Shown: in pieces, positions 7,090-58,105 of the stretch
Layout of the letters: every line of letters begins with the position of its first letter
How positions within the stretch are numbered: position 1 is the first letter of the stretch
Assembly (NCBI GenBank): GCA_965203275.1
Contig: OZ241865.1
Coordinates: 384,001 to 448,000 of the forward strand
Length of the DNA stretch: 64,000 bases
Direction of reading: 5' to 3'
Origin: Bdellovibrionales bacterium
GTDB taxonomy: Bacteria > Bdellovibrionota > Bdellovibrionia > Bdellovibrionales > JAUICD01
Made by a program: the position numbers and the translations under genes
The notes under the pieces: generated by a model
Databases searched by the model: none
Told to the model about the DNA's origin: nothing
What the model saw: the letters and a program-made list of their open reading frames with translations, nothing else

Positions 7090-7710
7090 TCACTAAAAAT
7101 AAACCAGCCTCTGGCTGTTTTTGGGCATTGCTCTGACAGCTTACGCTGTCTAAAAAGAGCAATGTCGTTGCTTCACTAAAAGTGGTCTGACCTCTGGTCA
7201 CTTTCTGGCGATGACCACGATGGCTTTCGCCATCGGTAAAATGGTCATCGCCTAGAAAGCTTGACCACTTTTAGTAGGAAGGATATCTTCGTTCCTTAAC
7301 TCCATGTTAAGGAAAACGTTCTTTCTTACACCTGCTTGCCGGGTTGCCGGATCCCAGATCCCGGATAAACACGATGTTAAGGAAACAGAGTTTCATTTTT
7401 TTATTTTTTTTTTATTCTCTTTTAGATTCTGCGTAACTCTCAAAAAAAAGTAATTAAGAGGAGGATGGGGCAACGGGAGGCTGAAGATCTTCCGCAAATT
7501 GAGCTTGCTCCTTAAAAGCAAGCTCAATTGAGGACTTCGGAAGGCTCCCGTTGCCCCATCCTCAAGTAAAAACAAAATGGAAAAGCAGAATCGAAGGGCG
7601 GTGGGTGGGGTTAGGGAGAATCCTCTTGTCTCTTGACTACATGTTAGGGAAACAAAACGCCTTTCCTGCCTGATGCCGGGTTGCCGGATCTCAGATCCCG
7701 GATAAACACG
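7090..7710. repeat. Mosaic structured-repeat array A (partial unit, full unit 7173-7316, heptamer modules, long hairpin module 7425-7592)
   Basis: Nested inverted repeats shared with seven other intergenic regions. Confidence 0.9.
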
Positions 7711-7718
7711 CAAGATGT

Positions 7719-8024
7719 TCACTTCTTTTTATTTTTGCTCTCTTGACTCCTTTTACTTTTATTTTTTGCTTCTTTGATAGCTGCTAACATTCTGCTACTG
7801 GGTACAGTTGCAGAAACGTTGTTGCCTGCTTCAATTTTGAAGTACTCAGGAATTGATTTTCTTGAGACAACTGTGCGACGACCTCCTCTTTGAGAAAGAG
7901 TTACTGTATCTTTATCAAATTTTATAATCCTTCCTGTAATTGTCGCATTTTTATAAATTCCTGCAAAAACAGGAGTTATACACAAAATAATTCCTCCGGT
8001 AATTAAAATTATTAAAGTCTTCAT
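7719..8024 (-). CDS. Small secreted hypothetical protein
   Basis: Signal peptide ending in PVFA; AAGGAGG RBS upstream. Confidence 0.7.
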   Translation of the reverse strand: MKTLIILITGGIILCITPVFAGIYKNATITGRIIKFDKDTVTLSQRGGRRTVVSRKSIPEYFKIEAGNNVSATVPSSRMLAAIKEAKNKSKRSQESKNKKK

Positions 8025-8057
8025 TGTTTAATCCTCCTTAGGTTGTTTCTTCGTTTG

Positions 8058-9011
8058 TTAAAAAGCTCCCCTTCCCCTTCTTCTACTTGGAGTTTCTGGC
8101 CATGAAGGTGGTTGTGCTACTATTGCATCTTCTTCTACTACTCCTCTATCAACTTTTGTTCCTGCTTCATGTATACAATCAATTGCTGTTGGACATTTAC
8201 CATTTCTAAGACGAGAACATGAAGCAAAATTAGAATACGCATTCCTTCCCTCACGAGTGAATCCAATATCACACTGAACGTATGAAGCACATAACTGAGT
8301 TGTTCCACAGCCATTGTTGCTAATAAGATAAGGATCTATATCAATAGTGTCTATACTATAAGGAATATCATACCCAATATAACGACAGTTAATGAGATCT
8401 CTAGTTGAACTGGGGGTACGATTACGAGTTGGACTAGAGTTATTATTACTGATAATATCGCGTATTGTACCCATTCGGCTACTGGGAAGGAGATCTTTCT
8501 TGCTGTAAAAGTATGTATCATTCCTTAGTCCATATCCCCCTTCTGCAACTTCAATTTGATCTTCACGGTCTAATATTATGTCTTTTTCTGCTAGTTGATC
8601 CATAACCCACCGATTTTCGCGTAAGGGAATATTATAATAATTCTTGATTGGCCCTGCTACGTCTGCATCTCTTTTGCCAATGTTAAGATGAACGATCTCT
8701 CTTTTTCTAGTACGAGGATTAGTGATTAGCAGTCCTAAACTACTAAGCTTTGTCTCATTATCAATATAGCCACTCGCACCTTCACAGTTCATTCTCACCG
8801 ATCTCGATGATGACGACGCACAAGAAGATGTCGAACCTATGAGTCTAGGACATCTTGACTGGACTACATCAACATATTCATCACAATACACAGCACTTAC
8901 TCTTGCCTGTACAACAGAACTCAAACCCACTACACTGCAAAATGACAGAATAGCTGGTAATAAAGATTTTGATTGCATTATTTTCCAAAATAAATATTTT
9001 AACTTTTTCAT
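8058..9011 (-). CDS. Secreted Cys-containing hypothetical protein
   Basis: Signal-like N-terminus, Cys clusters at both ends, AAAGGAGG RBS at about 9020-9027. Confidence 0.75.
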   Translation of the reverse strand: MKKLKYLFWKIMQSKSLLPAILSFCSVVGLSSVVQARVSAVYCDEYVDVVQSRCPRLIGSTSSCASSSSRSVRMNCEGASGYIDNETKLSSLGLLITNPRTRKREIVHLNIGKRDADVAGPIKNYYNIPLRENRWVMDQLAEKDIILDREDQIEVAEGGYGLRNDTYFYSKKDLLPSSRMGTIRDIISNNNSSPTRNRTPSSTRDLINCRYIGYDIPYSIDTIDIDPYLISNNGCGTTQLCASYVQCDIGFTREGRNAYSNFASCSRLRNGKCPTAIDCIHEAGTKVDRGVVEEDAIVAQPPSWPETPSRRRGRGAF

Positions 9012-9030
9012 TTTTAAATCCTCCTTTGGC

Positions 9031-9478
9031 TCACTAAAAGTAAACTAGCCGCTGGCTACTTTTGGGTAGCCAGCCCGACGACTCTCGTCGTCGATCAAAG
9101 GCTGGCTACCTCAAAAGTCCGTTTACTTTTAGTAGAAAGGATCCTTTCGTCTCTTAACACCATGTTAAGGAGTTTGTTTCACTAAAAGTAAACCAACCTC
9201 TGGTTGCTTTTGGACATTGCTCTGACAGCTATCGCTGTCTAAAAAGAGCAATGTCTCAAAAGTCCGTTTACTTTTAGTAGAAAGGATACTTTCCTCTTTT
9301 AACTACATGTTAAGGAAACAATTCCTTCTTACACCTGCTTACCGGATCCCAGATCCCGGATAAACATCATGTTAAGGAAACAAGGTGTTCGTTTCATCTT
9401 CCTTTTCCTTTTATTGCCGGACTGCCTGTCTACCGGATCCCGGATGAACACTATGTTAAGGAAAAAGTTCCTTCATCA
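9031..9478. repeat. Mosaic structured-repeat array B (two tandem full units 9031-9171 and 9176-9319, plus heptamer modules)
   Basis: Same architecture as array A with different helix sequences. Confidence 0.9.
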
Positions 9479-9585
9479 GATATGTTTCATTTTGAAACAT
9501 ACTCATTAAGAATGATCTTTGATTAAGTAAGAAATATAATAAGAAATAAGAAATAGTTTGCTGGTGGATAAATTATAAAAAAAGG

Positions 9586-9684
<99 letters not shown>

Positions 9685-9785
9685 AAATAAACCACCTTTC
9701 ACTATTATTATCGGCTAAAATACTTTTACCACTTTAATTTTATTTAAAATTTAGGCTTTTGTCTTACTTAAAAGCATGTCTTGTC

Positions 9786-10150
9786 TCACTAAAAATAAAC
9801 CAGCCGTTTGCTTCACTAAAAGTAAACCAACCTCTGGTTGCTTTTTGGCGATGACCACGACGACTTTCGTCGTCGATAAAATGGTCATCACCTCAAAAGT
9901 CCGTTTACTTTTAGTAGAAAGGATCCTCTCCTCTTTTAACACCATGTTAAGGAAAAAGAACTTCATTCGTAAACCCGCTTGCTCTTGAGGTAATAAAAGA
10001 AATTTTCCTTAACATAGTGTAAAGGAATAAAAGGATCCTCCCTACTCAAAATAAATAGATTTTCTAGGCAGTTAGCCTTTGATCGACGGCGGTAGCCGTC
10101 GGGCTAACTGCCATAAAACATGCCAGAGGCATGATTTATTTTGAGTGAAA
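9786..10150. repeat. Mosaic structured-repeat array C (stub, + unit 9812-9957, - unit 10003-10150)
   Basis: Two units tail to tail. Confidence 0.9.
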
Positions 10151-10162: not shown

Positions 10163-13100
10163 CTATCCTCTAGGTATTCCATCAGGCATTTCACTTGGTA
10201 TATTGGGGCGATTATCATGCCATATAATACAGCGGAAAATATGAAGTCGACATATTAAAGCCCGACGACAACTCACACTACTTCCTCCATGTTGCCCTAC
10301 ACATTTCCATCTATGAAACTCATCACGTTCAGTTACATCCTGAATAGCTCCTGAGCGACAACCATGACCTCTTGGTTTTGTGTTACATTTACCATTGATA
10401 GGTCTATTTCTCTGACAAGATTGATTTGTGCCACCATTGAGTCCTTCACAAGTCCATCTAAATAGATCATCTGTATCTGCATGTCCGTTGGGATTAGATC
10501 TTCCTGCAGAACAAGCATATTTTTGAGCGGTATTACATACACCGTTTATAGTTTTAGGTTTTTGACAATTCGTCGCTGTTGTTCCACCATGTTCTCCTAC
10601 ACAATGCCACTTATAATCTGTGCGGGTATCGGCAATGGCATTGTCATTGGCTTGCCCACTTTGACAACCATTGCGTACTTCGTTGTTGCAAGCCCCATTG
10701 ACAGGTTTGTGTTTTTGACAATTCGTCGCTGTTGTTCCACCATGCTGTCCCACACATTGCCACTTATAATGCATATCTGTATCTTCAATGGCACCATCGT
10801 TAGCCTGTCCGGCTTGACAACCATTGCGTACATCATTATTGCAAGCTCCATTGACAGGTTTGCGTTTTTGACAATTCGTCGCTGTTGTTCCACCATGTTG
10901 CCCTACACAATGCCACTTATAATCTGTGCGGGTATCAGCAATAGCGTTGTCATTGGCCTGTCCAGTTCGGCAACTATTTCTAACAGCATTATTGCAAGCC
11001 CCATTGACAGGTTTTAGTTTTTGACAATTACTGACTGTTGTTCCACCATGTTGTCCTACACATTGCCATTTATAATGCAGGTCTGTATCGGCAATGGCAT
11101 TGTCATTGGCTTGCCCTACTCGACAACCATTTCGAACAGCATTATTGCAAGCTCCATTGACAGGTTTGCGTTTTTGACAATTCGTCGCAGTTGTTCCACC
11201 ATATTGTCCTACACATTGCCATTTATAATGCATGTCTGTATCTGCTGCATCTTTGAGCGAACCACTTTGACAACTATTTCGGACAGCGTTATGGCAGGCA
11301 CCATTGACAGGTTTGCGTTTTTGACAATTAGTCGCTGACGTTCCACCATGTTGTCCTACACATTGCCATTTATAATGCAGGTCTGTATCTGCTACATCTT
11401 TGAGCGAACCACTTTGACAACTATTTCGAACAGCATTATTGCAGGCACCATTAACAGGTTTGAGTTTTTGACAATTAGTCGCTGTTGTTCCGCCATGTTG
11501 TCCTACACATTGCCATTGATAATGTGTATCTGAATCTGCTAGATCTTTAAGCAGACCAGTTTGACAACGATTTTGAATAGCATTGTTACAAGCTCCATTG
11601 ATTGGTTTAAGTTTTTGGCAATTTGTAACTGTTTGTCCGCCATGTTGTCCTATACACTGCCATTGATAATGTGTATCTGAATCTGCTACATCTTTGAGCA
11701 AACCAGTTTGACAACGATTTTGAACAGCATTATTGCAAGCCCCATTAACAGGTTTGCGTTTTTGACAATTAGTCGCCGTTGTTCCACCATGTTGCCCTAC
11801 ACAATGCCACTTATAATCTGTGCGGGTATCAGCAATGGCATTGTCATTGGCCTGTCCAGTTCGACAGCCATTTTGAACAGCATTATTGCAAGCTCCATTA
11901 ACAGGTTTGCGTTTTTGACAATTCGTCGCCGTTGTTCCGCCATGTTGTCCTACACAATGCCACTTATAATGCAGGTCTGTATCTGCAATGGCATTGTCAT
12001 TGGCCTGCCCAGCTTGACAACCATTTTGGAGGGCATTATTGCAAGCCCCATTGACAGGTTTGCGTTTTTGACAGGTTGTAGCTGTTCCACCATGTTGTCC
12101 TATACATTGCCACTTATAATGCATATCTGTACTAGCTATATTACGACTACTGGCTTGTCCAGCTTGACAACCATTGCGTATGTTATTATTGCAAGCCCCA
12201 TTGACAGGTTTGAGTTTCTGGCAGTTAGTGGCACTTCTTCCGCCGTGTTGTCCTACACATTGCCATTGATAATGTGTATCTGAATCTGCTACATCTTTGA
12301 GCGAACCACTTTGACAACCATTTCGAACAGCATTATTACAAGCCCCATTGACGGGTTTAAGTTTTTGGCAATTTGTAACTGTTTGTCCGCCATGTTGTCC
12401 TACACAATGCCACTTATAATGTGTGTTGCTATCGGCAATGGCATTGTCATTGGCTTGCCCTGTTCGACAGCCATTTTGAACTGCATTATTGCAAGCTCCA
12501 TTGACAGGTTTGAGTTTTTGACAGGTGGTGGCTGTTGTTCCACCATGTTGCCCTACACAATGCCACTTATAATGTGTGTTGCTATCGGCAATGGCGTTGT
12601 CATTGGCTTGCCCTGTTCGGCAACCATTTTGAACAGCATTATTACATGCTCCATTGACAGGTTTTAGTTTTTGACAGGTAGTGACTGTTGTTCCCCCATG
12701 TTGCCCTATACATTGCCATTGATAATGTGTATCTGTACTAGCTATGTTACGGGCTTGTCCAGCTTGACAACCATTGCGTACGTTATTATTACAAGCCCCA
12801 TTGACAGGTTTTGATTTTTGACAATTAGTCGCCGTTGTTCCGCCATGTTGCCCTACACAATGCCACTTATAATCTGTGCGGGTATCGGCAATGGCATTGT
12901 CATTGGCTTGCCCTGTTCGGCAACCATTTTGAACAGCATTATTACATGCTCCATTGACAGGTTTTAGTTTTTGACAATTAGTTGCTGTTGTTCCACCATG
13001 TTGCCCTACACAATGCCATTTATAATCTGTGCTGGTATCGGCAATAGCATTGCTATTGGCTTGTCCAGTTCGACAGCCATTTTGAACAGCATTATTGCAA

Positions 13101-16100
13101 GCTCCATTGATTGGTTTGAGTTTTTGACAGGTGGTGGCTGTTGTTCCGCCATGTTGTCCTACACATTGCCACTTATAATGTGTGCTACTGTCGGCAATGG
13201 CATTGCTATTGGCTTGCCCTGTTCGGCAACCATTTTGAACAGTATTATTACAAGCTCCATTGACAGGTTTTAGTTTTTGACAATTACTAGCCGTTGTTCC
13301 GCCATGTTGCCCTACACAATGCCACTTATAATGTGTGTTGCTGTCAGCAATAGCATTGCTATTGGCTTGTCCAGTTCGACAGCCATTTTGAACGGCATTG
13401 TTACAAGCTCCATTGACAGGTTTGAATTTCTGGCAGTTAGTGGCACTTCTTCCGCCATGTTGTCCTACGCACTGCCATTTATAATGTGTATCTGAATCTG
13501 CCACATCTTTAAGCAAGCCAGCTTGACAACGATTTTGAACAGCATTATTACAAGCTCCATTGATGGGTTTAAGTTTTTGACAGGTAGTGACTGTTGTTCC
13601 ACCATGTTGCCCTATACATTGCCATTTATAATGTGTATCTGAATCTGCTACATCCTTGAGCAGACCAGTTTGGCAACGATTTCGAACTGCATTATTGCAA
13701 GCTCCATTGATGGGTTTGAGTTTTTGACAAGTGGTGACATTTGTTCCGCCGTGTTGTCCTACACAATGCCACTTATAATGTGTGTTGGTATCAGCAATAG
13801 CATTGCTATTAGCTTGTCCAGTTCGACAGCCATTTCGAACTGCATTATTGCAGGCTCCATTAACAGGTTTTGCTTTTTGGCAATCTGTAGCTGCTCTTCC
13901 TCCATGTTGCCCTACACATTGCCACTTATAATGTGTATCTGAATCTGCTACATCCTTGAGCAGGCCAGTTTGACAACGATTTTGAACAGCATTATTGCAA
14001 GCCCCATTGATAGGCTTGAGTTTTTGACAATTAGTAACAGTTGTTCCACCATGTTGCCCTAAACAATGCCACTTATAATGTGTATTGGTGTCAGCAATAG
14101 CATTGTCATTGGCTTGTCCTACTCGGCAACCATTTTGAACAGCATTATTGCAAGCCCCATTGACAGGCTTAATTTTTTGACAATTTTCTGCATTTTGTCC
14201 ATTTCGGCCCACACACTGCCATTTATAATGTGTGTCGGTATCGTGTGTGTCATTTAATTTGCCTGCTTGACAATCATTTGTAATGGCATTATTACATTGT
14301 CCATGTTCAGATATAGAAAACTGACAATTACTATCCGTTGTTCCACCATTTCTGCCAACACAATCCCACTTATGAAATCCATTAGCATTGGGTTTGCGTT
14401 GAGCCGTACCTGATAAACAACGATCTCTTTGTGTATTGTCACAACGGCCATTATTTGTGTTCCATTGACAGGAGGCAGTTGTTCCACCACGTTGTCCTTC
14501 ACAAGACCACTTCTTTATATTAGGATTTTGACGATCAAAACCTGCATTGACGAATTTACCACTTTGGCAATTAAGAGTTAAATAATTACAGGCTCCATGT
14601 ACTGGTTTTATTTTTTGACAATTAATGGCTGTTGTTCCGCCATGTTGCCCCAGACATTTCCATCTATAATGTGTACTGGTATCATCAATGGCACTGTCAT
14701 CAGCTTGCCCAACTCGGCAACCATTTTGAACAGTATTATTGCAAGCCCCATTGACAGGTTTTATTTTTTGACAATTAATGGCCGTTGTTCCGCCATGTAA
14801 ACCTGCACAATGCCACCTATAATGTGTGTTGGTATCAGCAATAGCATTGTCATTGGCTTGCCCTGCTCGACAACCATTTTGAACAGCATTATTACAAACT
14901 CCATTGCTTGGCTTTAATTTTTGACAATTAATGGCTGTTGTTCCGCCATGTTGCCCTACACATTGCCATCTATAATGAGTGTTGGTATCAGCAATAGCAT
15001 TGTCATTGGCTTGTCCTACCCGACAACCATTTTGAACGGCATTATTGCAAGTTCCATTAATTGGTTTTATTTTTTGACAATTAATGGCTGTTGTTCCACC
15101 ATGTTGTCCTACACAATGCCACTTATAATGTGTGCGGGTATCAGCAAGAGCATTGTCATTAGCTTGCCCTGCCCGACAACCATTTTGAACAGCATTATTA
15201 CAAACTCCATTGATTGCTTTTAGTTTTTGACAATTGGTAGCCGTTGTTCCGCCATGTTGCCCTACACAATGCCATCTGTAATGAGTGTCTGTATCAGCAA
15301 TGACATTGTCATTTGATTGCCCTTTTTGACAGCCATTTTGAACGGCATTATTACAAGCTCCATGGACAGCTTTAAATTTTTGACAATTGGTAGCTGTTGT
15401 TCCGCCATGTTGCCCTACACAATGCCACCTGTAATGGGTGTCTGTGTCAACAACAGCATTGTCATTGGCTTGACCTTTTTGACAGCCATTTTGAACGGCA
15501 TTGTGACAGACTCCATTAATTGGTTCATTTTCACTATTAAGTGCAACAGATCCCCTTTGACATGTATGATGACTTGGTCTGTCTTCTGCAGTTCCAAAAA
15601 AGCAAATATCTTCATCTGTCGGACAATAACTATAATAAGCTTGCTGGTAAGATGAATCTCCTTTGATGGCTGTGACCTCTATTTCAAATTCTTGACATTC
15701 TCTGCTTGATATAGAATATAAAGGAGCAAAATTCTGCTTGGGATCTTCTATAGATCTTCTTTTGTCATCACCTGTTGTAGTTGTAGGAAACATATCAACT
15801 CTGCCATTAACACAGTTGATAGGGTATATCTGTGAGCCTTTTTGAAAAGAACAACTATCTGCTGCTGCAATATCAACTGCTATATACTGAGAAGATAATC
15901 TATCGTGTTTATAGATGGCATTACTTTCTAAAGACATAATAGCATTCTGTCCATCACTATCTAAAATAAGAGGCGGATTAAAATAAGGAGATGTATCTTC
16001 AGTGACTTGAAGTGTTTTTTGTCTGTAAACAGTACATTGACTCTCTGAAGATTCTACAGGATTGGCTTTGACTTCTAGGATTAAATCAGAACCTACAGAA

Positions 16101-16831
16101 GCTGTCGTAGGGATATTAAAAGTAACAGTTCCAGCTTCTGAAGTGATCACCTGTTGAGATGGTAATGTGACCCTCCACCGAATAGAAGAAAATAAAAGAG
16201 GATCTCGAATAGTGAAAGTTGCTGATTGACCTACATTTACTGCACCGCTTTGTAACTTAATTTCTAAAATATCAGTTTGGGAACAAGTTTCTCCTATAAC
16301 AACTATTTTGTTAAATTGACCTAGTAGGTTATTCATGTCCACTGTTTTATATGATTTTGCAAAGATATTATAAATTCCAGGTTGAACAAAACGGTGTTTA
16401 TAAGTAGCAGTGCTACTAGTGGCTTTATTCACAATTGTTTCAAAACCTTTCTTGATAGTCCATTGAAAGTAATTAGAGAGAGGATCTGCGTGAATGACCT
16501 GCATATTCACATTGGTATTAATAGGAAAATAATTAACAGGATCTATTTCATTCCCCTGTTCATTGATAAAGACTATACTTCCTTTATTACTATTAGGAGA
16601 AGATCTTATTTCATCATCATCATCTTCTTCATCACTCTGCTCCTTTTGCTGTTGTTGCTGTTGCTGTTGTTGTCGCTGTCGTTGTGGATTTTCATTATCT
16701 GAAGATACAAGAGAATTAGGCTCACAATTTTGAAATAACAAAATACATGTCAAGGTCAATAAAACCATAAAAGCTATGACATGTACCTTTCCATAAAGAT
16801 GGCTTATAAGTTTATCATTTTGTGTTGACAT
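10163..16831 (-). CDS. 2222-aa surface lipoprotein/adhesin candidate with about 35 tandem 4-Cys repeats of ~50 aa
   Basis: Hydrophobic segment ending in LFQNC, poly-Q/acidic linker, PKD-like beta region, then repeats of consensus PVNGACNNAVQNGCRTGQANDNAIADTNTHYKWHCVGQHGGTTATNCQKLK. Confidence 0.9.
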   Translation of the reverse strand: MSTQNDKLISHLYGKVHVIAFMVLLTLTCILLFQNCEPNSLVSSDNENPQRQRQQQQQQQQQKEQSDEEDDDDEIRSSPNSNKGSIVFINEQGNEIDPVNYFPINTNVNMQVIHADPLSNYFQWTIKKGFETIVNKATSSTATYKHRFVQPGIYNIFAKSYKTVDMNNLLGQFNKIVVIGETCSQTDILEIKLQSGAVNVGQSATFTIRDPLLFSSIRWRVTLPSQQVITSEAGTVTFNIPTTASVGSDLILEVKANPVESSESQCTVYRQKTLQVTEDTSPYFNPPLILDSDGQNAIMSLESNAIYKHDRLSSQYIAVDIAAADSCSFQKGSQIYPINCVNGRVDMFPTTTTGDDKRRSIEDPKQNFAPLYSISSRECQEFEIEVTAIKGDSSYQQAYYSYCPTDEDICFFGTAEDRPSHHTCQRGSVALNSENEPINGVCHNAVQNGCQKGQANDNAVVDTDTHYRWHCVGQHGGTTATNCQKFKAVHGACNNAVQNGCQKGQSNDNVIADTDTHYRWHCVGQHGGTTATNCQKLKAINGVCNNAVQNGCRAGQANDNALADTRTHYKWHCVGQHGGTTAINCQKIKPINGTCNNAVQNGCRVGQANDNAIADTNTHYRWQCVGQHGGTTAINCQKLKPSNGVCNNAVQNGCRAGQANDNAIADTNTHYRWHCAGLHGGTTAINCQKIKPVNGACNNTVQNGCRVGQADDSAIDDTSTHYRWKCLGQHGGTTAINCQKIKPVHGACNYLTLNCQSGKFVNAGFDRQNPNIKKWSCEGQRGGTTASCQWNTNNGRCDNTQRDRCLSGTAQRKPNANGFHKWDCVGRNGGTTDSNCQFSISEHGQCNNAITNDCQAGKLNDTHDTDTHYKWQCVGRNGQNAENCQKIKPVNGACNNAVQNGCRVGQANDNAIADTNTHYKWHCLGQHGGTTVTNCQKLKPINGACNNAVQNRCQTGLLKDVADSDTHYKWQCVGQHGGRAATDCQKAKPVNGACNNAVRNGCRTGQANSNAIADTNTHYKWHCVGQHGGTNVTTCQKLKPINGACNNAVRNRCQTGLLKDVADSDTHYKWQCIGQHGGTTVTTCQKLKPINGACNNAVQNRCQAGLLKDVADSDTHYKWQCVGQHGGRSATNCQKFKPVNGACNNAVQNGCRTGQANSNAIADSNTHYKWHCVGQHGGTTASNCQKLKPVNGACNNTVQNGCRTGQANSNAIADSSTHYKWQCVGQHGGTTATTCQKLKPINGACNNAVQNGCRTGQANSNAIADTSTDYKWHCVGQHGGTTATNCQKLKPVNGACNNAVQNGCRTGQANDNAIADTRTDYKWHCVGQHGGTTATNCQKSKPVNGACNNNVRNGCQAGQARNIASTDTHYQWQCIGQHGGTTVTTCQKLKPVNGACNNAVQNGCRTGQANDNAIADSNTHYKWHCVGQHGGTTATTCQKLKPVNGACNNAVQNGCRTGQANDNAIADSNTHYKWHCVGQHGGQTVTNCQKLKPVNGACNNAVRNGCQSGSLKDVADSDTHYQWQCVGQHGGRSATNCQKLKPVNGACNNNIRNGCQAGQASSRNIASTDMHYKWQCIGQHGGTATTCQKRKPVNGACNNALQNGCQAGQANDNAIADTDLHYKWHCVGQHGGTTATNCQKRKPVNGACNNAVQNGCRTGQANDNAIADTRTDYKWHCVGQHGGTTATNCQKRKPVNGACNNAVQNRCQTGLLKDVADSDTHYQWQCIGQHGGQTVTNCQKLKPINGACNNAIQNRCQTGLLKDLADSDTHYQWQCVGQHGGTTATNCQKLKPVNGACNNAVRNSCQSGSLKDVADTDLHYKWQCVGQHGGTSATNCQKRKPVNGACHNAVRNSCQSGSLKDAADTDMHYKWQCVGQYGGTTATNCQKRKPVNGACNNAVRNGCRVGQANDNAIADTDLHYKWQCVGQHGGTTVSNCQKLKPVNGACNNAVRNSCRTGQANDNAIADTRTDYKWHCVGQHGGTTATNCQKRKPVNGACNNDVRNGCQAGQANDGAIEDTDMHYKWQCVGQHGGTTATNCQKHKPVNGACNNEVRNGCQSGQANDNAIADTRTDYKWHCVGEHGGTTATNCQKPKTINGVCNTAQKYACSAGRSNPNGHADTDDLFRWTCEGLNGGTNQSCQRNRPINGKCNTKPRGHGCRSGAIQDVTERDEFHRWKCVGQHGGSSVSCRRALICRLHIFRCIIWHDNRPNIPSEMPDGIPRG

Positions 16832-18938: not shown

Positions 18939-19361
18939 TTGTTTAAAACTCTACATATTTGTCTTGAAGTCTATGGTTGTTGCACCTTAGAAATAGATAA
19001 TGTTTTTAGTTCCCTCTACGACCATATCAAACCTTGGACTCTTATTCCTAGTCCACCTCACAAAACCAATCTTTTAATTGTATCAGGTTGGCTTGCTCCA
19101 CAACTTCAAACACATATTAAATTAGTTTATGAAAAACTTCTCACAGATAAAAAAGTTATTGCTATAGGTGTTTGCTCTCTTTCAGGTGTTGTTTATCAAA
19201 CAAAACAGCAAACAAATGTATCAGTGGATCAAATTTTACCTGTATCTGTTTTTGTTCCTGGTTGTCCTCCTTCGCCAGAGCAAATTATATCAGGAATCAA
19301 GCTCGCTTTAGATACTAAAATACCCAGCAAAAGTAAGGATAACTTTTTAAATGTTTACTGA
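18939..19361 (+). CDS. Divergent NuoB / group-4 hydrogenase small-subunit-like Fe-S protein
   Basis: GCC..E, IAIGVC and VFVPGCPP motifs. Confidence 0.75.
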   Translation: MFKTLHICLEVYGCCTLEIDNVFSSLYDHIKPWTLIPSPPHKTNLLIVSGWLAPQLQTHIKLVYEKLLTDKKVIAIGVCSLSGVVYQTKQQTNVSVDQILPVSVFVPGCPPSPEQIISGIKLALDTKIPSKSKDNFLNVY

Positions 19362-20646
19362 CGTTCACCCAAAGACTTCTTTAAACTTCTTTAAAAAGTC
19401 TGAATTACAGACTTCAGAAATTTCATATATTCAAGAGGATGATTTTTGGAATATATTTGTAAAGCTTAAAGAAATGAGACTTTGTCATCCGTTGATTCTT
19501 CTTAAAGTTCCTCAAGGTGTTTTTCTCTGTTTAAAACTTTTAAGGCCTTTTTTAGAATATCATTTTTTAGTTCAAACTTCAGAAAAGCACACTTTTTGTA
19601 AGAAACTGCAATCTTTTTTTGTTAAAGAAAATTCTTTTATAAAAAATCACTTCAATTTAAATATACAACATATCCAACAGGAAGCTCTTTTAAACAAAAT
19701 GCAAACATTACCTCCTAACATGAGCCTTCACTGGTCTAGCAAAATAGATCCTTTTGAAGGAGTTGCTCTCAGTTGGGCTTTGGCCGGTGTTTATGAAAAT
19801 GCTTGGCAAATTGTTCCTCCTTTTAAAGCGATCCTCTTGCGTACTTTTGCTTGTGAACTGCAAAGAGTTTTATGGGGACTGCAATATTTAAAAGGTATTT
19901 GTCAACAACTTCAGTGGGATTTTTGGAAAGATCTGTGGTTAGATTACAGAGAATGTTTTTTTCAAATACAAGAGCTGGCTTTTCATCATCGTATTTTTCC
20001 TCATTTTATTGTCATAGGAGGGGTCCATCAAGAGATCAATCAAGGCCATCAAAGACTTATTGAAAAATATCTTTTAGAAATCACTCCATCTCTGTCTGAT
20101 CACATCCGTCAGTTTGTAGAAAAAACAAAATACCCATTAAAAGATTTTCTTCCTCTGGATAGAGATGAATTAGAAAAGGCGACATGGGGAGGAATGGTGG
20201 CTAAAGCATCACAAAGTTTTTGGGATGCTCGTCTTTTTGCTTCTTATGGATTAGAAAAGTATGCCCCTCTTTTACTTCCATCAAATAAACCTCCATTAGG
20301 CGACGCATTCGATCGTTTGCAATGTGTAGCAGACAATATCTTGTATTCTTTAAGACATCTTACAGTATTGCTTTTTGACTTATCAAAACAAAGCAACGCA
20401 CCTCTTGCTATAGCCATCTGTCAAGAACAAATGAAAGATCCTAAGGGATGTGTTTTTGTTGTAGAAGGATCGAGTGGTCCTATTTATGCATCAGTATTTA
20501 ATTGGCAAATAGATATTTCAACATCAAGGACGAGAGGTTATAAGTATTTACCTCATTTCTTATCAAAAATAGCAGATAAAAAAATACCTTTAGCTCTAGC
20601 TTCGTTGGGTTTCTTTGACAGAATAAATAAAGGAGAGCCGTTATGA
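19351..20646 (+). CDS. Highly divergent NuoD (49-kDa subunit)-like protein
   Basis: LRTFACELQR, R....IVIGGV, GDAFDR and VEG..G resemble NuoD; no Ni-binding CxxC pairs; lies between nuoB- and nuoI-like genes. Confidence 0.55.
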   Translation: MFTDVHPKTSLNFFKKSELQTSEISYIQEDDFWNIFVKLKEMRLCHPLILLKVPQGVFLCLKLLRPFLEYHFLVQTSEKHTFCKKLQSFFVKENSFIKNHFNLNIQHIQQEALLNKMQTLPPNMSLHWSSKIDPFEGVALSWALAGVYENAWQIVPPFKAILLRTFACELQRVLWGLQYLKGICQQLQWDFWKDLWLDYRECFFQIQELAFHHRIFPHFIVIGGVHQEINQGHQRLIEKYLLEITPSLSDHIRQFVEKTKYPLKDFLPLDRDELEKATWGGMVAKASQSFWDARLFASYGLEKYAPLLLPSNKPPLGDAFDRLQCVADNILYSLRHLTVLLFDLSKQSNAPLAIAICQEQMKDPKGCVFVVEGSSGPIYASVFNWQIDISTSRTRGYKYLPHFLSKIADKKIPLALASLGFFDRINKGEPL

Positions 20647-27744: not shown

Positions 27745-28967
27745 TCATTAACATCATGTTTATCTGGGATCTGGGATCTGGGATCCGGGATCCGGGATCT
27801 GGGATCCGGGATCGGGATCCGGGATGGGATCCGGGATCCGGGATCCGGGATCTGGGATCCGGGATCTGGGATCCGGCAACCCGCCATCAGGCAGGAAAGG
27901 CGTTTTGTTTCCCTAACATTTCACTCAAAATGCATCATGCCGTCTGTTTCACTTGAAATGAGCCACACCGCTGGTGTGTTTTTTGGTGTTGCCTGCAAAG
28001 GCTTTCGCCTTTGACAAAATAGGCAACACCTAAAAAATCCGCTCATTTCAAGTAGGGCGGATCTCCTTGCTTCTTTACACCATGTTAGGGAAAAAGTGTT
28101 TTTATTGTCTTGGAAGCAAGCGGGCTACAATAAAGGAACTTTTTCCCTAACATCATGTTAAGAGACGAGGAGATCCTCCCCTACTCAAAATGAGCAGTTT
28201 TTTGCGGCATTGCTCTTTTTGGACAGCGATAGCTGTCAGAGCAATCGTCAGAAGGAAATCTTTTTCCTTAACATCGTGTCAAAAGAGGAAAGGATCCTTC
28301 CTACTAAAAGTGGTCAGGCTTTTGAGGCAATGACCATTTTGTCAAAGGCGAAAGCCTTTGCGGTCATTGCCCAAAAGTAGCCAGAGGCTAGACCACTTTT
28401 AGTGAAACAGAGGTGTGGCTCATTTTGAGTGAAACAACTATTTTGAGTAGAGGAGGATCCTTTTATTCCTCTACACCATGTTAGGGAAAAAGTGCTTTTA
28501 TTACTTTAGGAGCAAGCGGGTCTGCGGAAGATCTCCAGCCTGCCCCCGCCTCCCACTCATAATATTCTTCATTTTTTTGAGAGTTACGCAGAATCTAAAA
28601 AAATAAAAAAAACAAAAAAAACGAACATCTTGTTTCCCTAACATCGTATTGATTTTTTCTGGGATCCGGGATCTGGGATCCGGGATCCGGCAACCCGGCA
28701 TCAGATCCCAGAATTGACTTTTTCCTTAACATGGTATAAAGAAATGAAAGGATATTTTTCCGGGATCCGTGATCTGGCACCCTGGCATCAAACAGACAGG
28801 CAAGGATGAAGCGAATATCTTGTTTCCCTAACATTGTGTTAAAAGCAAGGAGATCCTTCCTACTAAAAGTAAACGGACTTTTGAGGTAGCCAGCCTTTGA
28901 TCGACGGCGAAAGCCGTCGGGCTGGCTACCCAAAAGTGACCAGAGGTCAGTTTACTTTTAGGGAAAC
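27745..28967. repeat. Mosaic structured-repeat array D (units 27949-28095 +, 28261-28407 -, 28823-28967 -, partials, hairpin module B on - strand, heptamer tracts)
   Basis: Largest array; all module types present. Confidence 0.9.
27764..27873. repeat. About 16 tandem heptamers CYGGGAT (GATC-dense)
   Basis: Direct reading; expanded form of the module seen in other arrays. Confidence 0.92.
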
Positions 28968-34970: not shown

Positions 34971-34976
34971 CATTTT

Positions 34977-35749
34977 TTCACTAAAAGTGGTCTAGCCTCT
35001 GGCTACTTTCTGGCAATGACCGCAATGGCTTTCGCCATTGGCAAAATGGTCATTGCCTAGAAAGCCTGACCACTTTTAGTAATGAGGATCCATTTCTCAT
35101 TTAACACCATGTTAAGGAAAAAGTTCCTTCATCGCAACTCGCATGCTCCCTAAAAACATTTGAGAAGCATACCTTGTTTCCCTAACATGGTGTCAGAAGC
35201 AAGGAGATCCGCTCTACTCAAAATGAGCAGATTTTTGAGGCATTGCTCTGACAGCTTACGCTGTCCAAAAAGAGCAATACCTCAAAAATCCGTTTATTTT
35301 TAGTAGGAAGGATCCTTTCCTTTTTTAACACAATATTAAGGAAAAAGTTCCTTCTTAAATGCTGGCAACCTCAAAAGTCCGTTTACTTTTAGTAGGGAGG
35401 ATCTCTTCGTTTTTTTACACAATGTTAAGGAAAATATCCTTCTAATAACAGTTAGCCCTACGGCTACCGCCGTCATCAAAGGCTAACTGCCTAGAAAATC
35501 CATTTATTTTGAGTAGGGGAGGATCCTTTTATTTCTTTACACTATGTTAAGGAAAAATTTCTTTTATTGCCTTAAGAGCAAACAAGCATACAAATGAAAC
35601 TCTTTTTCCTTAACATGTGGTTAAGAGACGATGAGATCCTTCCTACTAAAAGTGGTCAAGCTTTCTAGGCAATGACCATTTTGCCAATGGCGAAAGCCAT
35701 TGCGGTCATTGCCAGAAAGTAGCCAGAGGCTAGACCACTTTTAGTGAAA
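34977..35749. repeat. Mosaic structured-repeat array E bounded by ~100-bp near-perfect inverted copies
   Basis: 34978-35080 is the reverse complement of about 35645-35747 with one mismatch; fills the gap between two convergent stops. Confidence 0.92.
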
Positions 35750-38726: not shown

Positions 38727-38727
38727 T

Positions 38728-47598: not shown

Positions 47599-48217
47599 CT
47601 TAGAGTTATTTATTCCATTTCCCTAATAGGATGTTCATCCGGGATCTGGGATCCGGCAACCCGGCATCTAAATGAACTTTTTCCTTAACATCGTGTTAAA
47701 AAATGAGGAGATCCTCCTCTACTCAAAATAAATGGATTTTCTAGGCAGTTAGCCTTTGATCAACGGCGATAAGCCGTTGGGCTAACTGCCAGAAAACATG
47801 CCAGAGGCATGATTTATTTTGAGTGAAACAACTGCCTTGTTTCCTTAACATGTGGTCAAAAAACGAAGAGATCCTCCCTACTCAAAATAAATGGATTTTC
47901 TAGGCAGTTAGCCTTTGATCAACGGCGATAAGCCGTTGGGCTAACTGCCAGAAAACATGCCAGAGGCATGATGCATTTTGAGTGAAACAACTAACTCTCT
48001 ACTAAAAGTGGTCAAGCTTTCTAGGTTGCCAGCATTTGAGAAGGCGATAGCCTTCGGCTGGCAACCAGAAAGTAGCCAGAGGCTAGACCACTTTTAGTGA
48101 ACCAGTGAACCAAGGAACTTTTTCCTTAACATGTAGTCAAGAAACGAAGGGATCCTCCCTACTAAAAGTAAACGGACTTTTGAGATAGCCAGCCTTTGAT
48201 CGACGGCGAGAGCCGTC

Positions 48218-49617
48218 GAGCTTGTCCCTGATATCGGTGAAAATAGACGGCTCATAAATTAGTTTTTAATTGTTTTTTCTTTTTGTCAATAATAATTTTT
48301 TTTAAACTTTGTTCTAATTGTTCTAAATCTTTAAATCCTTTAATGCTTTTGAAATGTTTTTCTGCTTCCAATAGACTCACAGCAGACCATCTTAAAACTT
48401 GATCTGAAGAAGAACTCCAATTCTTTACCCTCCGAACTTTTTCCCTCACAACTGAAAAAACAGACTCAATAGGATTTGTCGATGATAATGACCTCCTTAA
48501 AAGTAATGAAACTCCAAGCTTGATCGTTGTCAGTGTCTCCATCTCTGCCTCTTTTAAAGATGTGAATGCTGAATGATTGACCCGCTTTAACCAGCTTAAT
48601 AAAGACTCATGCTCTAACTTCGATGACAACTCATCTGGCATACCATGTAACTTCTTCCAACGACTCTTAAACTCTATGTGACGACTTGGAGGTAAGCAAC
48701 TCAGAATATTTCTCTCTTTATGCTGAATACAACGCTGAACTACTGAACGATCTGAAAATACTCTATCTATTCCCTTCCTTAATGCTTTGCTACCATCAAT
48801 CACAAAAAGATAACCCTTCTCTTTATCAAGACCACGACCTATAAGTCCCTCCAGAAGATCACGGCAAACTTCCCAACTCTCTGTATTGCCTTCTTTAAGA
48901 CCTAATATAACCTTCTTACCTTGATCTGTGATTCCTAAGGCCACTATAACCAGCGTAGAACCAATACCCACTCCATCTATCATTATCGCTGGAAACCTGT
49001 ACTTACTTAAATCACGATTGTTAATCGACTCAAGGGCTTGTTTAGATGACTTATTAAAAACTCTACTCACACTACTCCTAGAAAGTTTAAGCCCTCCTGA
49101 AATATCATCTAAAAGATGATTGTAATTCCGTGATGAAACTCCACTCATGGCATGTTTTAAAACACGATCACTGAGTATGTCATAGTGTTGAAGGGCTGAA
49201 TAGATCTTAAGCCTCACTTCACGACCTGACTGCTTAACACGAGGCTTCCTAACCTGCAACTTTTGACCACCTGCAAGTATGCTACCTTTATCACTACCAG
49301 CTCTATGATATGGTGTATCTCTATGACGACCATAACGCTCACCGCAAAGCTCTAATAGCTCTGCTTCAAAAAAACCATAGACCGAACAAAGAATAGATGA
49401 CTTGATCTCATCCTCTACAATCTGACGAATTTCTGACAAAGTATTGGCTGAAACTTGAAATGAATGACTATTTTTGGTACACTTCATAATGGCTCCTTTC
49501 TTTTTATTTTTAAAAGTTAATTGTTAATAAAATTTGGTTGGCTGAAATATGCCAACCAGGAGCCTTCTATCTTAACATCTTCTCTAAGAAAAATTCACCG
49601 AATTATAGGACATGCTC
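48218..49617 (-). mobile_element. Complete 1400-bp IS256-family element
   Basis: Imperfect 24-bp terminal IRs (GAGCTTGTCCCTGATATCGGTGAA / TTCACCGAATTATAGGACATGCTC) and 8-bp target duplication GAGCCGTC at 48210-48217 and 49618-49625. Confidence 0.93.
48252..49487 (-). CDS. IS256/Mutator family DDE transposase
   Basis: GVSSR, IMIDG, VALGI...G.K..LG, IDGSKAL, QRCIQHKERN and STNPIES motifs. Confidence 0.93.
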   Translation of the reverse strand: MKCTKNSHSFQVSANTLSEIRQIVEDEIKSSILCSVYGFFEAELLELCGERYGRHRDTPYHRAGSDKGSILAGGQKLQVRKPRVKQSGREVRLKIYSALQHYDILSDRVLKHAMSGVSSRNYNHLLDDISGGLKLSRSSVSRVFNKSSKQALESINNRDLSKYRFPAIMIDGVGIGSTLVIVALGITDQGKKVILGLKEGNTESWEVCRDLLEGLIGRGLDKEKGYLFVIDGSKALRKGIDRVFSDRSVVQRCIQHKERNILSCLPPSRHIEFKSRWKKLHGMPDELSSKLEHESLLSWLKRVNHSAFTSLKEAEMETLTTIKLGVSLLLRRSLSSTNPIESVFSVVREKVRRVKNWSSSSDQVLRWSAVSLLEAEKHFKSIKGFKDLEQLEQSLKKIIIDKKKKQLKTNL

Positions 49618-49868
49618 GAGCCGTCGGGCTGGCTATCCAAAAGCAGCCAGAGGCTGGTTTACTTTTAGTGAAACAGACAAATGTAGATATTAATATAGAC
49701 TATGGTTCAATTTGAGACAGTTTTTGAAAAAAATTAATTATTTTTGCATTTCTACCGATATAATTTGAGAAAGGTATAGAAGCAAAAAAACGAGTATAAA
49801 ATATATTCAAAGATAACAGAGCAGAACAAAACAAAAATTAGCTCAGTTAGAATATAATAAAAGGTATT

Positions 49869-55081: not shown

Positions 55082-55200
55082 GATGCCTCCTTTATTTTTT
55101 TAGTTTCGTTCTTGAATTTTCAACATTTCAATTATTTATTTTTTAGTATTAAAATATGATGCTGATAATAGTATATCTTAATTACTCACTCCTTGCAAGT

Positions 55201-55666
55201 GTTTCACTAAAAGTGCTTGGCTCACTAAAAGTAAACGGATTTTTGAGGCAATCAGCCTTTGATCGACGGCGAGAGCCAAAAGGTGTAAGAAAAAACTTTT
55301 TCCTTAACATGGTGTTTATCCGGGATCTGGGATCTGGGATCCGGCATCCGGCAGACAGGCAAGAATGAAGCGAATATCTTGTTTCCCTAACATGGAGTTA
55401 AGAGACGAGAGGATCCTCCTTACTCAAAGTGAACAGGCTTTCTAGGTTGCCAGCCTTGATGAAGGAACTTTTTCCTTAACATGGTGTTAAAAAACGAAGA
55501 TATCCTCTTTACTAAAAATAAACGGATTTTTGAGGCATTGCTCTTTTTAGACAGCGTAAGCTGTCAGAGCAATGCCCAAAAACAGCCAGAGGCTGGTTTA
55601 TTTTGAGTGAAATATTAAGAAAAAAAAGTTTCATCCACAGACCGTTTGCTCTTAAGGCAATAAAAA
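55201..55666. repeat. Mosaic structured-repeat array G (partials, heptamer module, full - unit at about 55468-55612)
   Basis: Same modules as the other arrays. Confidence 0.88.
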
Positions 55667-55689
55667 TAATCCTTATCAAAGTGACAAAG

Positions 55690-56637
55690 CTAATAAAAAA
55701 TAGTCAATAAGTAGATGAAATATAAAGCAAGTAAGAAAATACCCAATATACGAACAAATGCTTTTATATAAATAGATAAAATCAACAAGCCCAATGTGAT
55801 TCCAAACAACCAGAAATAATCATATTTCATAATATCTCTTGTGACTGTCAAAGGCATACACAAAGAGGCCGCTCCTGTGATGAGGAGAGTATTCATAATA
55901 TTTGAGCCAATCACATTAGATATGGATATGTCATGTCTTTTTCTTAAAGCTGCTACAAGGGAAGCAGCTAATTCTGGTAACCCCGTCCCCACAGAGACAA
56001 TTGTCAAACCTATAAGCCTCTCTGTCATACCCATAGCCCTTCCTATATGCACAGCACCTAATAAAACCAAATGAGCTCCTGCTAATAAACCACCAATACT
56101 TAATATGAGAAACATCCAATCTTTAAAGCTTGCCGTGGAAGGCTTTCTCTTTGTTTGGCATAAAGTATCTTGTGAGCTATCCCCTCTTACATGATTGATC
56201 ACAACAGAATATAAAAATATAGCAAATAATATCAAAAACAAAAGGCCATCCCATCTTGTTAAAAACAAGTCCTGCCCTAAAATCCACAAAAGACAAGTAG
56301 CGAGTATCAAAAAAAACCATTCTTTTTTCACAGATACAAATGTGTTTTGTAAAGGTTTTAAACAACAAGCAAATCCAATCACAACCAAGAGGTTAAAAAT
56401 ATTTGAACCTATGATATTGCCAAGTGAAATATCAGGAACACCTTTAAAAGAAGCTATAAGTGAAGTGACTAATTCAGGTAACGATGTGCCAAGTGCTACA
56501 AGAGTCACTGTGATTAAAGCAGCAGGAATGCCTGTTTTTTCTGCAATAGTGATGATAGTTTTTAAAAGAAAATCAGCAGACAATAACAATAGCCCTAAAC
56601 CTAATACTAGCTGTAGGAAGGCAATCACCATATCCAT
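55690..56637 (-). CDS. Calcium/sodium antiporter (YrbG/CaCA family)
   Basis: Two alpha repeats: GTSLPEL...GNIIGSNIFN and GTGLPEL...SNVIGSNIMN. Confidence 0.93.
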   Translation of the reverse strand: MDMVIAFLQLVLGLGLLLLSADFLLKTIITIAEKTGIPAALITVTLVALGTSLPELVTSLIASFKGVPDISLGNIIGSNIFNLLVVIGFACCLKPLQNTFVSVKKEWFFLILATCLLWILGQDLFLTRWDGLLFLILFAIFLYSVVINHVRGDSSQDTLCQTKRKPSTASFKDWMFLILSIGGLLAGAHLVLLGAVHIGRAMGMTERLIGLTIVSVGTGLPELAASLVAALRKRHDISISNVIGSNIMNTLLITGAASLCMPLTVTRDIMKYDYFWLFGITLGLLILSIYIKAFVRILGIFLLALYFIYLLTIFY

Positions 56638-56831
56638 TTTGAATCCTTAAGTTTAGGTCTAAAGATGAGCATTTTTCAAAGACTTTTTGATAATATCGTG
56701 TTGATTCTTAGGTTGCAACTATAACTTAATTTTTATTTCAATGGACAATTGTCTTGATATTATAATGCTTATCATGCTTATCAATAAAAATTATTATTGA
56801 AAACAACAATTTTACAATATATAATAAAAGT

Positions 56832-57284
56832 ATGTTGAGATATAAGATTTCAGGAATTATTGTCATTTGTTTTTGTATAGGGTGTTTGCCAAAGGCCTCA
56901 GATCAGTTAGAAAGAGGTCCTGTTTCAATACAGCAACTCAAAAAGCAAAGAGGAAATCCTCAAAGTATCCAACAAACAGCCTCAGGACAAACTGTCCATC
57001 AATATCGTTCAGGAGAAAATTTTCAAGTTGATCAAGAAGGTCAAGTCACCTATACCTATCGCAATCCTACACAAGAAGAGCAATCATTGCAATATTGGCT
57101 GACCCGTTGGAGAGAGCAAACATATCATTTCACTGCCATAAAAGAAAATAAAACTCACCTTCCTGAAAGTCTTTACTATATTAATTTAGATAACAATGAA
57201 CGATTTGTTTATGATCAAGCTATGGACAAAGTGGTGCGAGTTATTTTTGAGCTTGAAACAGAAAGAGACCCTACTATTCACTAA
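56832..57284 (+). CDS. Hypothetical lipoprotein
   Basis: CIGC lipobox-like signal; the stop codon lies inside the first repeat stub. Confidence 0.65.
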   Translation: MLRYKISGIIVICFCIGCLPKASDQLERGPVSIQQLKKQRGNPQSIQQTASGQTVHQYRSGENFQVDQEGQVTYTYRNPTQEEQSLQYWLTRWREQTYHFTAIKENKTHLPESLYYINLDNNERFVYDQAMDKVVRVIFELETERDPTIH

Positions 57285-58105
57285 AAGTGGTCTATTTCAC
57301 TCAAAGTGAACTGACCTCTGGTCACTTTCTGGCGATGACCACGACGGCTTTCGCCGTCGATAAAATGGTCATCACCTAGAAAGCCTGACCACTTTTAGTA
57401 GGGAGGAACCCTTCGTTTTTTTACTCCATGTTAAGGAGTTGTTTCACTCAAAGTGAACTGGCCTCTGGCCACTTTTGGACAATGACCGCAACGGCTTTCG
57501 CCGTTGACAAAATGGTCATTGTCTCAAAAGTCCGTTTACTTTTAGTAGGAAGGATCTCCTCGTTTTTTTACTCCATGTTAAGGAAACAAGATTTCGTTTT
57601 TTTGTTTTTTTTATTTTTTTAGATTCTGCGTAACTCTCAAAAAAAAGTAATTAAGAGGAGGATGGGGGCAGAGGGATACTGGAGATCTTCCGCAGACCCG
57701 CTTGCTTCTTAAAAGCATTTTAGAAGCATATCTTGTTTCCTTAACATGGTGTAAAAGAATAAAAGGATCCTTCTCTACTCAAAATGAGCGGATTTTTTAG
57801 GTGTTGCCTATTTTGTCAAAGGCGAAAGCCTTTGCAGGCAACACCAAAAAACACACCAGCAGTGTGGCTCATTTTGAGTGAAATGTTAAGGAAAAAGTTC
57901 TTTCTGATGGCGGGTTGCCGGATCCCAGATCCCGGAAAGGTGTGGTGACCATGGCAGGATTCGAACCTGCGACACCAAGTTTAGGAAACTTGTGCTCTAT
58001 CCAACTGAGCTACATGGCCTATTTCCTTTTGTTGCCGGGTTGCCAGATCCCAGATCCCAGATCCCAGAAGAAAGACCCTATCATCCTTTAACATCATGTT
58101 AAAAA
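57278..58105. repeat. Mosaic structured-repeat array H (two + units, partial module B, one - unit, heptamer modules around a tRNA)
   Basis: Units at about 57297-57437, 57444-57587 and 57735-57883. Confidence 0.9.
57943..58019 (-). tRNA. tRNA-Arg(CCT)
   Basis: GGCCATG/CATGGTC acceptor stem, TAGCTCAGTTGGATAGAGC D arm, CAAGT-TTCCTAA-ACTTG anticodon arm, GGTTCGAATCC T arm, encoded CCA. Confidence 0.96.

What the first reader, a model, noticed from the sequence alone, without database searches (positions are those of the whole stretch)
7090..58105. Dispersed ~145-bp multi-branched hairpin unit whose four helices all covary: candidate new structured RNA or ssDNA element family
Seen in the sequence: about 18 near-complete copies plus fragments in 8 intergenic arrays. 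Layout is TCA-P1-P2 hairpin-P3-P4-P5 hairpin-A-rich bulge-P4'-P3'-P1'-TAG-RRAGGATCCT palindrome-TTAAC N5 GTTARGGAAA. Helix sequences differ between copies, yet both arms usually change together. P1 variants: CTAAAAGTGGTC, CTAAAAGTAAAC, CTCAAAATAAAT, CTTGAAATGAGC. P2 variants: TGACC, TAGCC, CAACC, CAGCC, CATGCC, CACACC, TGGCC, each around a 3-nt loop. P4 variants: GGCGATGACCA, GGCATTGCTCT, GGTAGCCAGCC, GGCAGTTAGCC, GGTGTTGCCT, GGTTGCCAGCC. P5 variants: CGATGGC, CGACGAC, CGACGGC, CAAAGGC, CAATGGC, GACAGC, GAAGGC. Helix alleles reassort between copies. Inference: the fold, not the sequence, is conserved. This is much more elaborate than a classical REP, and I do not recognise the family. No RT, Cas, integrase or HUH gene is present in the window.
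Basis: partly seen in the sequence, partly recalled or inferred. Interest (0 to 1): 0.92.

Follow-up and report, generated by a model that had tools for sequence, protein, structure and literature searches.

The report
Self-nesting three-armed hairpin DNA repeat
A roughly 150-base non-coding DNA unit that keeps a three-armed folded shape while its sequence varies fills about 6% of the genome of an uncultured Bdellovibrio relative; it behaves like a new family of selfish mobile repeats, and the enzyme that copies it was not found.

Summary
The window holds 16 complete copies plus fragments in 8 intergenic arrays; the genome holds 1,351 hits (753 near-full, 6.2%). All five stems of a three-way junction covary by Watson-Crick swaps with almost no G-T pairs. 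The tail palindromes do not covary. No Rfam match. The family was found only in this genus; the apparent third genome is mis-binned DNA. It behaves as a mobile repeat: the P1 end faces outward (104 vs 6 arrays), copies land in older copies and in dispensable genes, there is no fixed target duplication, and 4-8 non-target bases ride with the P1 end. No RAYT, IS91, IS110 or RT gene was found; 454 of 780 candidate proteins were scanned without a new candidate. Four-helix-bundle and Rpn genes are passengers or hot spots, not obligate partners. Best reading: a non-autonomous element that moves as a folded single strand, REPIN-like in behaviour but not a member. The scan noted this family at least five times before in this genome.

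The parts
9030..9320 (+). two full copies head to tail (9030-9172, 9176-9320)
9810..10150 (.). inverted pair with P1 ends outward (9810-9957 +, 10003-10150 -)
27766..27881 (+). GGGATCY heptamer tandem array at the edge of a repeat array; 249 of 276 such runs in the genome lie within 400 bp of the repeat
27946..28967 (.). array: full copies 27946-28095 +, 28261-28408 -, 28821-28967 -; fragments 28140-28255 -, 28436-28491 +; heptamers 28661-28703
34976..35749 (.). array: full copies 34976-35122 + and 35603-35749 - with P1 ends outward; nested or chimeric pieces 35175-35556
47678..48225 (-). array: full copies 47678-47829 and 47838-47988, tailless copy 47995-48103, left part of the IS-split copy 48119-48225
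48218..49617 (-). IS256-family element (1,400 bp, transposase 48252-49487) inserted at the P5 hairpin of a copy with an 8-bp target duplication; a passenger, its ends are unlike the repeat's
49618..49674 (-). other part of the IS-split copy
55223..55612 (-). array: full copy 55469-55612 plus fragments 55223-55277 and 55380-55457 and heptamers 55322-55349
57294..57883 (.). array: full copies 57294-57437 +, 57441-57588 +, 57734-57883 -; a tRNA gene follows at 57946-58019
7460..7563 (.). long perfect-hairpin module that recurs inside the arrays (a second repeat type, not characterised)
   Evidence: seen in sequence; related pieces serve as insertion targets

Best explanation
A genus-restricted, non-autonomous selfish repeat whose folded single strand is the functional unit. 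SHOWN: new junctions form at the P1 end. That end points out of arrays, joins target DNA 4-8 nt beyond the terminal TG with non-target bases in between, and leaves no fixed duplication; 7-140 bp of target are often replaced. Copies land inside older copies and in dispensable multicopy genes. INFERRED: a trans-acting enzyme recognises the folded strand, cuts a few bases outside P1 and transfers it with those flanking bases, as HUH (RAYT/IS200/IS91-type) enzymes do. Ectopic recombination between copies then reshuffles helix alleles and spreads captured gene pieces, and recombinants with unmatched arms seldom amplify. The enzyme is unidentified: lost, too divergent to detect, or a host protein. 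Odds within this reading: HUH-type, lost or undetected, about 0.45; host tyrosine recombinase about 0.25; host repair or annealing about 0.3.
For: Abundance and intergenic restriction: 1,351 hits, only 14 inside ORFs of 150 aa or more although those cover 72% of the genome. An independent run shows depth about 40 in unique DNA and 2,000-7,400 over arrays, so this is not an assembly artefact. Covariation with almost no wobble; 11 pairs show three or more Watson-Crick types. Array polarity 104 vs 6. 590 of 1,332 P1 ends resume inside or next to another copy after a short linker. At 115 distinct targets with a repeat-free paralog, identity to the native site is 0.16-0.39 before TG, 0.33-0.43 at +1 to +4, 0.48-0.62 at +5 to +8 and 0.77 or more from +9; the same target carries different 8-nt linkers. 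Empty-site pairs include a clean 157-bp insertion without duplication, several replacements and one 11-bp duplication. Cores present 3 or more times have mismatched P1 in 1 of 56 cases vs 86 of 374 singletons. PMC8266576 (passages) describes HUH enzymes cutting folded ssDNA 5' and 3' of the hairpin; PMC3116915 (passages) describes compensatory change in REPIN hairpins.
Against: No Y1/RAYT, Y2, IS110 or RT gene in G000; the only intact Y1 gene found in G001 is an IS200-type TnpA with no repeat beside it. No excision or empty-site joint among the rows shown from four runs (219 joints were not shown). The amplification-versus-pairing result is confounded by age: unpaired positions also carry fewer rare variants in multicopy cores (0.0038 vs 0.0225). 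In loci outside G000, 20 of 22 G-N-N-A loops are GNRA, which suits RNA just as well, and the loop-bearing strand folds slightly better with RNA parameters (55 of 60) as with DNA parameters (48 of 60). Native targets show no CT preference, only A-richness at +5 to +7. Only 52 of 449 clusters gave empty-site candidates, many of them noisy, and part of that output was cut from view.
Confidence: 0.62

Rival explanations
1. Tyrosine-recombinase mini-transposon or folded-ssDNA recombination site: the 8 variable bases beyond TG are a carried 'coupling' or overlap sequence, moved by a host recombinase such as the 187-aa integrase (Tn916, attC and CTX analogies are recalled, not from a call).
For: Step in identity at +8/+9 and mosaic 8-nt linkers at one target. 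No fixed duplication. Weakly similar ends, TTTCMCTAAAA vs TTTCCYTAACA. A short integrase whose catalytic residues look complete by eye is in G000 and G001.
Against: That integrase is also in repeat-free G002 and belongs to clusters common in Bdellovibrionota. Head-to-tail spacers are not constant (14-19 nt). Targets do not resemble the element end on average. No dif-like geometry in the tail and no clear dif site found.
Confidence: 0.15
2. Bacterial SINE- or retron-like retro-element: an RNA from the GNRA-loop strand is reverse-transcribed from a fixed 3' end and inserted with microhomology.
For: GNRA loops in the majority (395 vs 232 GNYA in G000; 20 of 22 elsewhere). Fixed 3' end, variable 5' junctions, replacements and inversions. 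G001 has RT genes.
Against: No RT in G000 by Pfam or by phmmer --max with three relatives' RTs (best E 0.56). No invariant branch G after P1 (position 93 is G in 79%). G-U pairs nearly absent.
Confidence: 0.1
3. A functional cis RNA element or ncRNA (mRNA stability, termination, protein binding) kept by host selection and spread by gene conversion.
For: Strong, conserved fold (about -52 kcal/mol vs -19 shuffled); 43 copies start within 16 nt of a stop codon.
Against: Both orientations downstream of genes (171 vs 114); nested fragments; gene disruption; not found in the other 148 genomes of the order sample; wobble-free stems.
Confidence: 0.07
4. The repeat is the non-coding module of a four-helix-bundle (PF05635, Avd-like) or Rpn (PF04754/PF12784) mobile cassette.
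For: In G000 all 32 four-helix-bundle copies or fragments have the repeat nearby, 29 with a downstream copy in one orientation. 27 of 30 Rpn genes have a copy within 500 bp, 14 on both sides, vs 4.3% background for both sides.
Against: 0 of 7 native G004 four-helix-bundle loci carry it; in G001, 4 of 7 have it within 500 bp, mostly in the other orientation. Only 4 of 15 G001 Rpn loci carry it, and G003 has 16 Rpn genes but no repeat. The repeat interrupts both gene types.
Confidence: 0.06

Closest known systems
REP / BIME / REPIN elements with RAYT (TnpA-REP, Y1 HUH); PMC3116915 and PMC8266576, passages read
   Different: 150-nt three-way junction instead of a 20-40-nt hairpin or doublet; GTAG not conserved outside G000 (13 of 47) and its hairpin does not covary; no RAYT in G000, none beside the repeat in G001; no CT target rule
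bcr1 of the Bacillus cereus group (about 155 bp); PMC3184786, passages read
   Same: Size, branched fold kept by compensatory changes, lineage-restricted, mover unknown
   Different: bcr1 has 5-bp direct repeats at every copy and a two-hairpin cruciform; this element has no fixed duplication, a three-way junction, self-nesting and far higher density; different phylum. No direct sequence comparison was made.
Classical MITEs of DDE insertion sequences (PMC3184786, passages)
   Same: Short, non-coding, weakly similar ends
   Different: No fixed target duplication; ends unlike the resident IS256 and IS1634 ends; conserved terminal TGT at one end only
Integron attC sites and Tn916-type coupling sequences (recalled, not from a call)
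   Same: Structure over sequence on one strand; carried flanking bases; cassette-like arrays
   Different: No R-box AAC/GTT pair at the boundary; no integron integrase; spacing not fixed

Membership tests
REP/REPIN (GTAG family) | Conserved GTAG 5' of a covarying palindrome | tested here: not met
   GTAG in 498 of 676 G000 copies but 13 of 47 elsewhere; its hairpin shows no covariation
REP/REPIN (GTAG family) | RAYT gene flanked by the repeats | tested here: not met
   No PF01797 match in G000 even at E 1; G001's intact Y1 gene is IS200-type with no repeat; RAYT-like genes only in repeat-free G002
REP/REPIN (GTAG family) | Inverted doublet as the replicating unit | tested here: inconclusive
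   104 arrays P1-outward vs 6 tail-outward, but 190 same-orientation arrays and 101 singles
REP/REPIN (GTAG family) | Cleavage of folded ssDNA at CT or CA | not testable with these tools
   Needs biochemistry; native targets show no CT bias
MITE (DDE) | Fixed-length target site duplication | tested here: not met
   Empty-site pairs give no duplication, replacements of 7-140 bp, or one 11-bp duplication
MITE (DDE) | Terminal inverted repeats shared with a resident IS | tested here: not met
   IS256 and IS1634 ends unlike the repeat ends; no IS30 in G000; G001's IS ends were not compared
bcr1-like repeats | 5-bp direct repeats flanking every copy | tested here: not met
Known Rfam RNA | Match at gathering score | tested here: not met
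   Only a tRNA in the window
Retron / retro-element | Cognate reverse transcriptase and invariant branch G | tested here: not met
   No RT in G000; junction G not invariant
IS91/ISCR or IS110 | Y2 or DEDD transposase in the genome | tested here: not met
   PF04986 absent from G000 and G001; PF02371 absent from G000
Tyrosine-recombinase element | Fixed-length overlap and core sites at both ends | tested here: inconclusive
   Step at +8/+9 at the P1 end only; tail-side spacing variable

The most novel reading that the evidence does not exclude
A new class of transposase-less selfish DNA: a three-way-junction single strand that a host enzyme (a short tyrosine recombinase or a repair/annealing pathway, possibly helped by the Avd-like or Rpn proteins) moves with a few carried flanking bases, that targets its own older copies, and that disperses and truncates host genes across 6% of a genome.
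Probability: 0.22. Interest if true: 0.85.

Novelty: new variant of a known kind. Interest (0 to 1): 0.6.

Why it matters
How non-coding bacterial repeats spread when no transposase is present is an old open question (bcr1 and similar families). This family gives about 750 natural variants with a defined fold, a defined active end and a measurable junction rule, in a single-contig genome where the usual movers were not found, so the mover can be hunted directly. It also reshapes its host: it fills most large intergenic spaces and truncates or carries Rpn, four-helix-bundle and resolvase genes.

Tried and rejected
Guide-like covariation between the 3' linker and any internal position: none (mutual information at most 0.17, not complementary). 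Four-helix-bundle and Rpn as obligate partners: rejected. G004 as a third host genome: rejected; its hits lie only on contigs C1, C4 and C11, and C11 carries a second rplB 96% identical to G001's vs 69% for the native copy. Loss of MutS or SbcD as the cause: MutS is present in 5 of 5 genomes; SbcD is missing from G000 but present in G001 and missing from repeat-free kin. Replication-strand bias: none seen in 200-kb bins. dif-like site: none clear. Proteome scan: of 780 cytoplasmic candidates, 150 were scanned with NCBIfam, 300 basic ones with PHROGs and 4 more with Pfam (454 in all). They gave only Cas1s, IS256, IS1634, a resolvase, Rpn, HNH and the short integrase. Not scanned: 187 non-basic proteins, 20 basic ones and 119 not on fetched loci; of the 119, the N-termini of 72 basic ones were read by eye. 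No RNA holder listed. Literature searches found no description of this family; the library lacks most subscription papers.
Full report
OBSERVATION. The intergenic sequence shows the units as described. A profile from 16 window copies finds 1,351 hits in the 2.57-Mb single-contig genome G000: 753 near full length, 677 of them distinct, covering 6.2%, in 419 clusters spread evenly on both strands. Only 14 hits lie mostly inside ORFs of 150 aa or more. The window has 16 full copies, a tailless copy, an IS-split copy and fragments in 8 arrays. An independent run (X4) has depth about 40 in unique DNA and thousands over arrays; a run labelled sponge metagenome (X8) covers 29 of 30 bins with pieces a few percent different. 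Rfam gives only a tRNA.

STRUCTURE. Mutual information recovers P1 (profile positions 7-19 with 95-107), P2, P3, P4 and P5. They form one three-way junction with a 3-nt linker, a 1-nt bulge and a 6-8-nt bulge. Perfect arm complementarity is 0.77-0.95 against 0.08-0.29 for shuffled arms. On a 57-sequence alignment from G000, G001 and G004 contigs, 97.2% of cells pair, 32 of 41 pairs change on both sides, 0 of 500 shuffles reach the covariation score, and slid controls collapse. That control ignores relatedness; a tree correction was not attempted because copies recombine. P5 loops on the opposite strand are GNNA: 395 GNRA, 232 GNYA and 56 five-base loops; 45 of 753 were not parsed. Outside G000, 20 of 22 such loops are GNRA. 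The tail palindromes do not covary, but ATGTTARGG is kept in 643 of 676 copies. Alleles reassort only partly (87 combinations among 368 perfect copies), and identical cores carry different tails.

DISTRIBUTION. G001 (same genus) has at least 150 copies (scoring cap). G004's 12 hits sit on three small contigs, one of which carries a second rplB 96% identical to G001's, so they are most likely mis-binned from this genus. No match in the other 148 genomes of the order sample or 150 phylum genomes, nor in viral, plasmid or phage sets. Other pattern hits were chance.

MOBILITY. Arrays with opposite outer copies have P1 ends outward in 104 cases and tails outward in 6. 590 of 1,332 P1 ends continue, after a short A/C-rich linker (mostly 2-10 nt), into the inside of another copy or an inverted neighbour, at preferred positions. 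At 115 targets with a repeat-free paralog, identity to the native site is at background before the terminal TG, 0.33-0.43 at +1 to +4, 0.48-0.62 at +5 to +8 and 0.77 or more from +9. One target can carry several different 8-nt linkers, and the linkers do not covary with the interior. Outside G000 the P1 end has a conserved ACA at +3 to +5. Of 449 clusters, 52 gave empty-site candidates, many noisy and part of the output cut: a clean 157-bp insertion without duplication, replacements of 7-140 bp, and one 11-bp duplication. Multicopy cores rarely have mismatched P1 (1 of 56 vs 86 of 374), but age confounds this.

PARTNER SEARCH. No Y1/RAYT, IS110, Y2 or RT in G000, which is 90% complete by markers. 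Two tyrosine recombinases exist: a XerD-like protein and a 187-aa integrase shared with repeat-free G002 and common in the phylum. IS256 and IS1634 ends are unlike the repeat's; the window's IS256 simply inserted into a copy with an 8-bp duplication. Family scans of 454 of 780 cytoplasmic candidates found nothing new. Two gene families are closely tied to the repeat in G000: a 101-aa four-helix-bundle protein (PF05635; 32 copies or fragments, broken by the repeat at recurrent codons) and Rpn nucleases (27 of 30). Neither tie holds across genomes, so I read them as hot spots and passengers spread by ectopic recombination.

MECHANISM. Shown: fold conservation, an active P1 end, carried flanking bases, no fixed duplication, self-nesting. 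Inferred: the substrate is the folded single strand, probably DNA, cut and joined by a trans-acting enzyme, with recombination reshuffling alleles afterwards. HUH chemistry fits best by analogy (PMC8266576, passages: folded ssDNA cut 5' and 3' of the hairpin, sites chosen by a tetranucleotide guide), but the enzyme is missing. The tyrosine-recombinase 'coupling sequence', attC/CTX, retron and Avd analogies are recalled, not tested.

COMPARISON AND VERDICT. It works like REPINs (PMC3116915, passages) and bcr1 (PMC3184786, passages) but fails their defining tests. PMC4679880 (passages) covers heptamer repeats without this element. PMC5350276, PMC10400941 and PMC3733652 were seen as search listings only; no supplements were read. 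Seven literature searches found no description. Five of the eight earlier notes listed for this genome describe the same family (24 notes fit the look-up). This report adds the junction profile, the G004 contamination, the tests against four-helix-bundle and Rpn partnership, and the proteome scan. Verdict: a new family and an unusual variant of structured selfish intergenic repeats; interest 0.6.

Noticed in passing
window 10163-16831 (-): 2,222-aa secreted-looking protein built of about 40 cysteine-rich repeats of roughly 50 aa (153-bp period); part of a 7-member family in the genome
   Followed up: no
window 48218-49617: IS256-family element inserted into the P5 hairpin of a repeat copy with an 8-bp duplication; 8 near-identical full-length copies in the genome, one of them frameshifted, plus a fragment
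   Followed up: yes
G004 contigs C1, C4, C11 (L013-L015): About 80 kb probably mis-binned from the window's genus: second rplB 96% identical to G001's
   Followed up: partly
G000 four-helix-bundle loci, e.g. L030, L033, L042: PF05635 genes flanked by heptamer arrays in direct rather than inverted orientation; 14, 19 and 19 copies in G000, G001 and G004, none in G002 or G003
   Followed up: partly
G000 Rpn genes, e.g. L107-L111: 30 Rpn genes; four of them, with two different N-termini, end in the same repeat-derived truncation and a fifth is cut nearby, which suggests gene conversion among paralogs
   Followed up: partly
window 7460-7563 and 57655-57700: A second, long-hairpin repeat module recurs inside the arrays and is itself an insertion target
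   Followed up: no
L155:9548-10282, L162:288-6315, G000 about 2.27 Mb: Three CRISPR adaptation loci: truncated type V Cas1, a type I-Fv locus, and split Cas1/Cas2/Cas4 pieces
   Followed up: no
L001:1399-2352 (-): The only full-length Xer-like recombinase appears to have Gln in place of the first His of the HxxR motif; no second full-length Xer and no clear dif site
   Followed up: partly
window 18939-21026: Divergent NuoB-, NuoD- and NuoI-like genes scoring below family cut-offs (for B and I; D judged by eye)
   Followed up: no
G000, genome-wide: Unusually many DNA methyltransferase genes and a 77-member family of small membrane-anchored coiled-coil proteins
   Followed up: no
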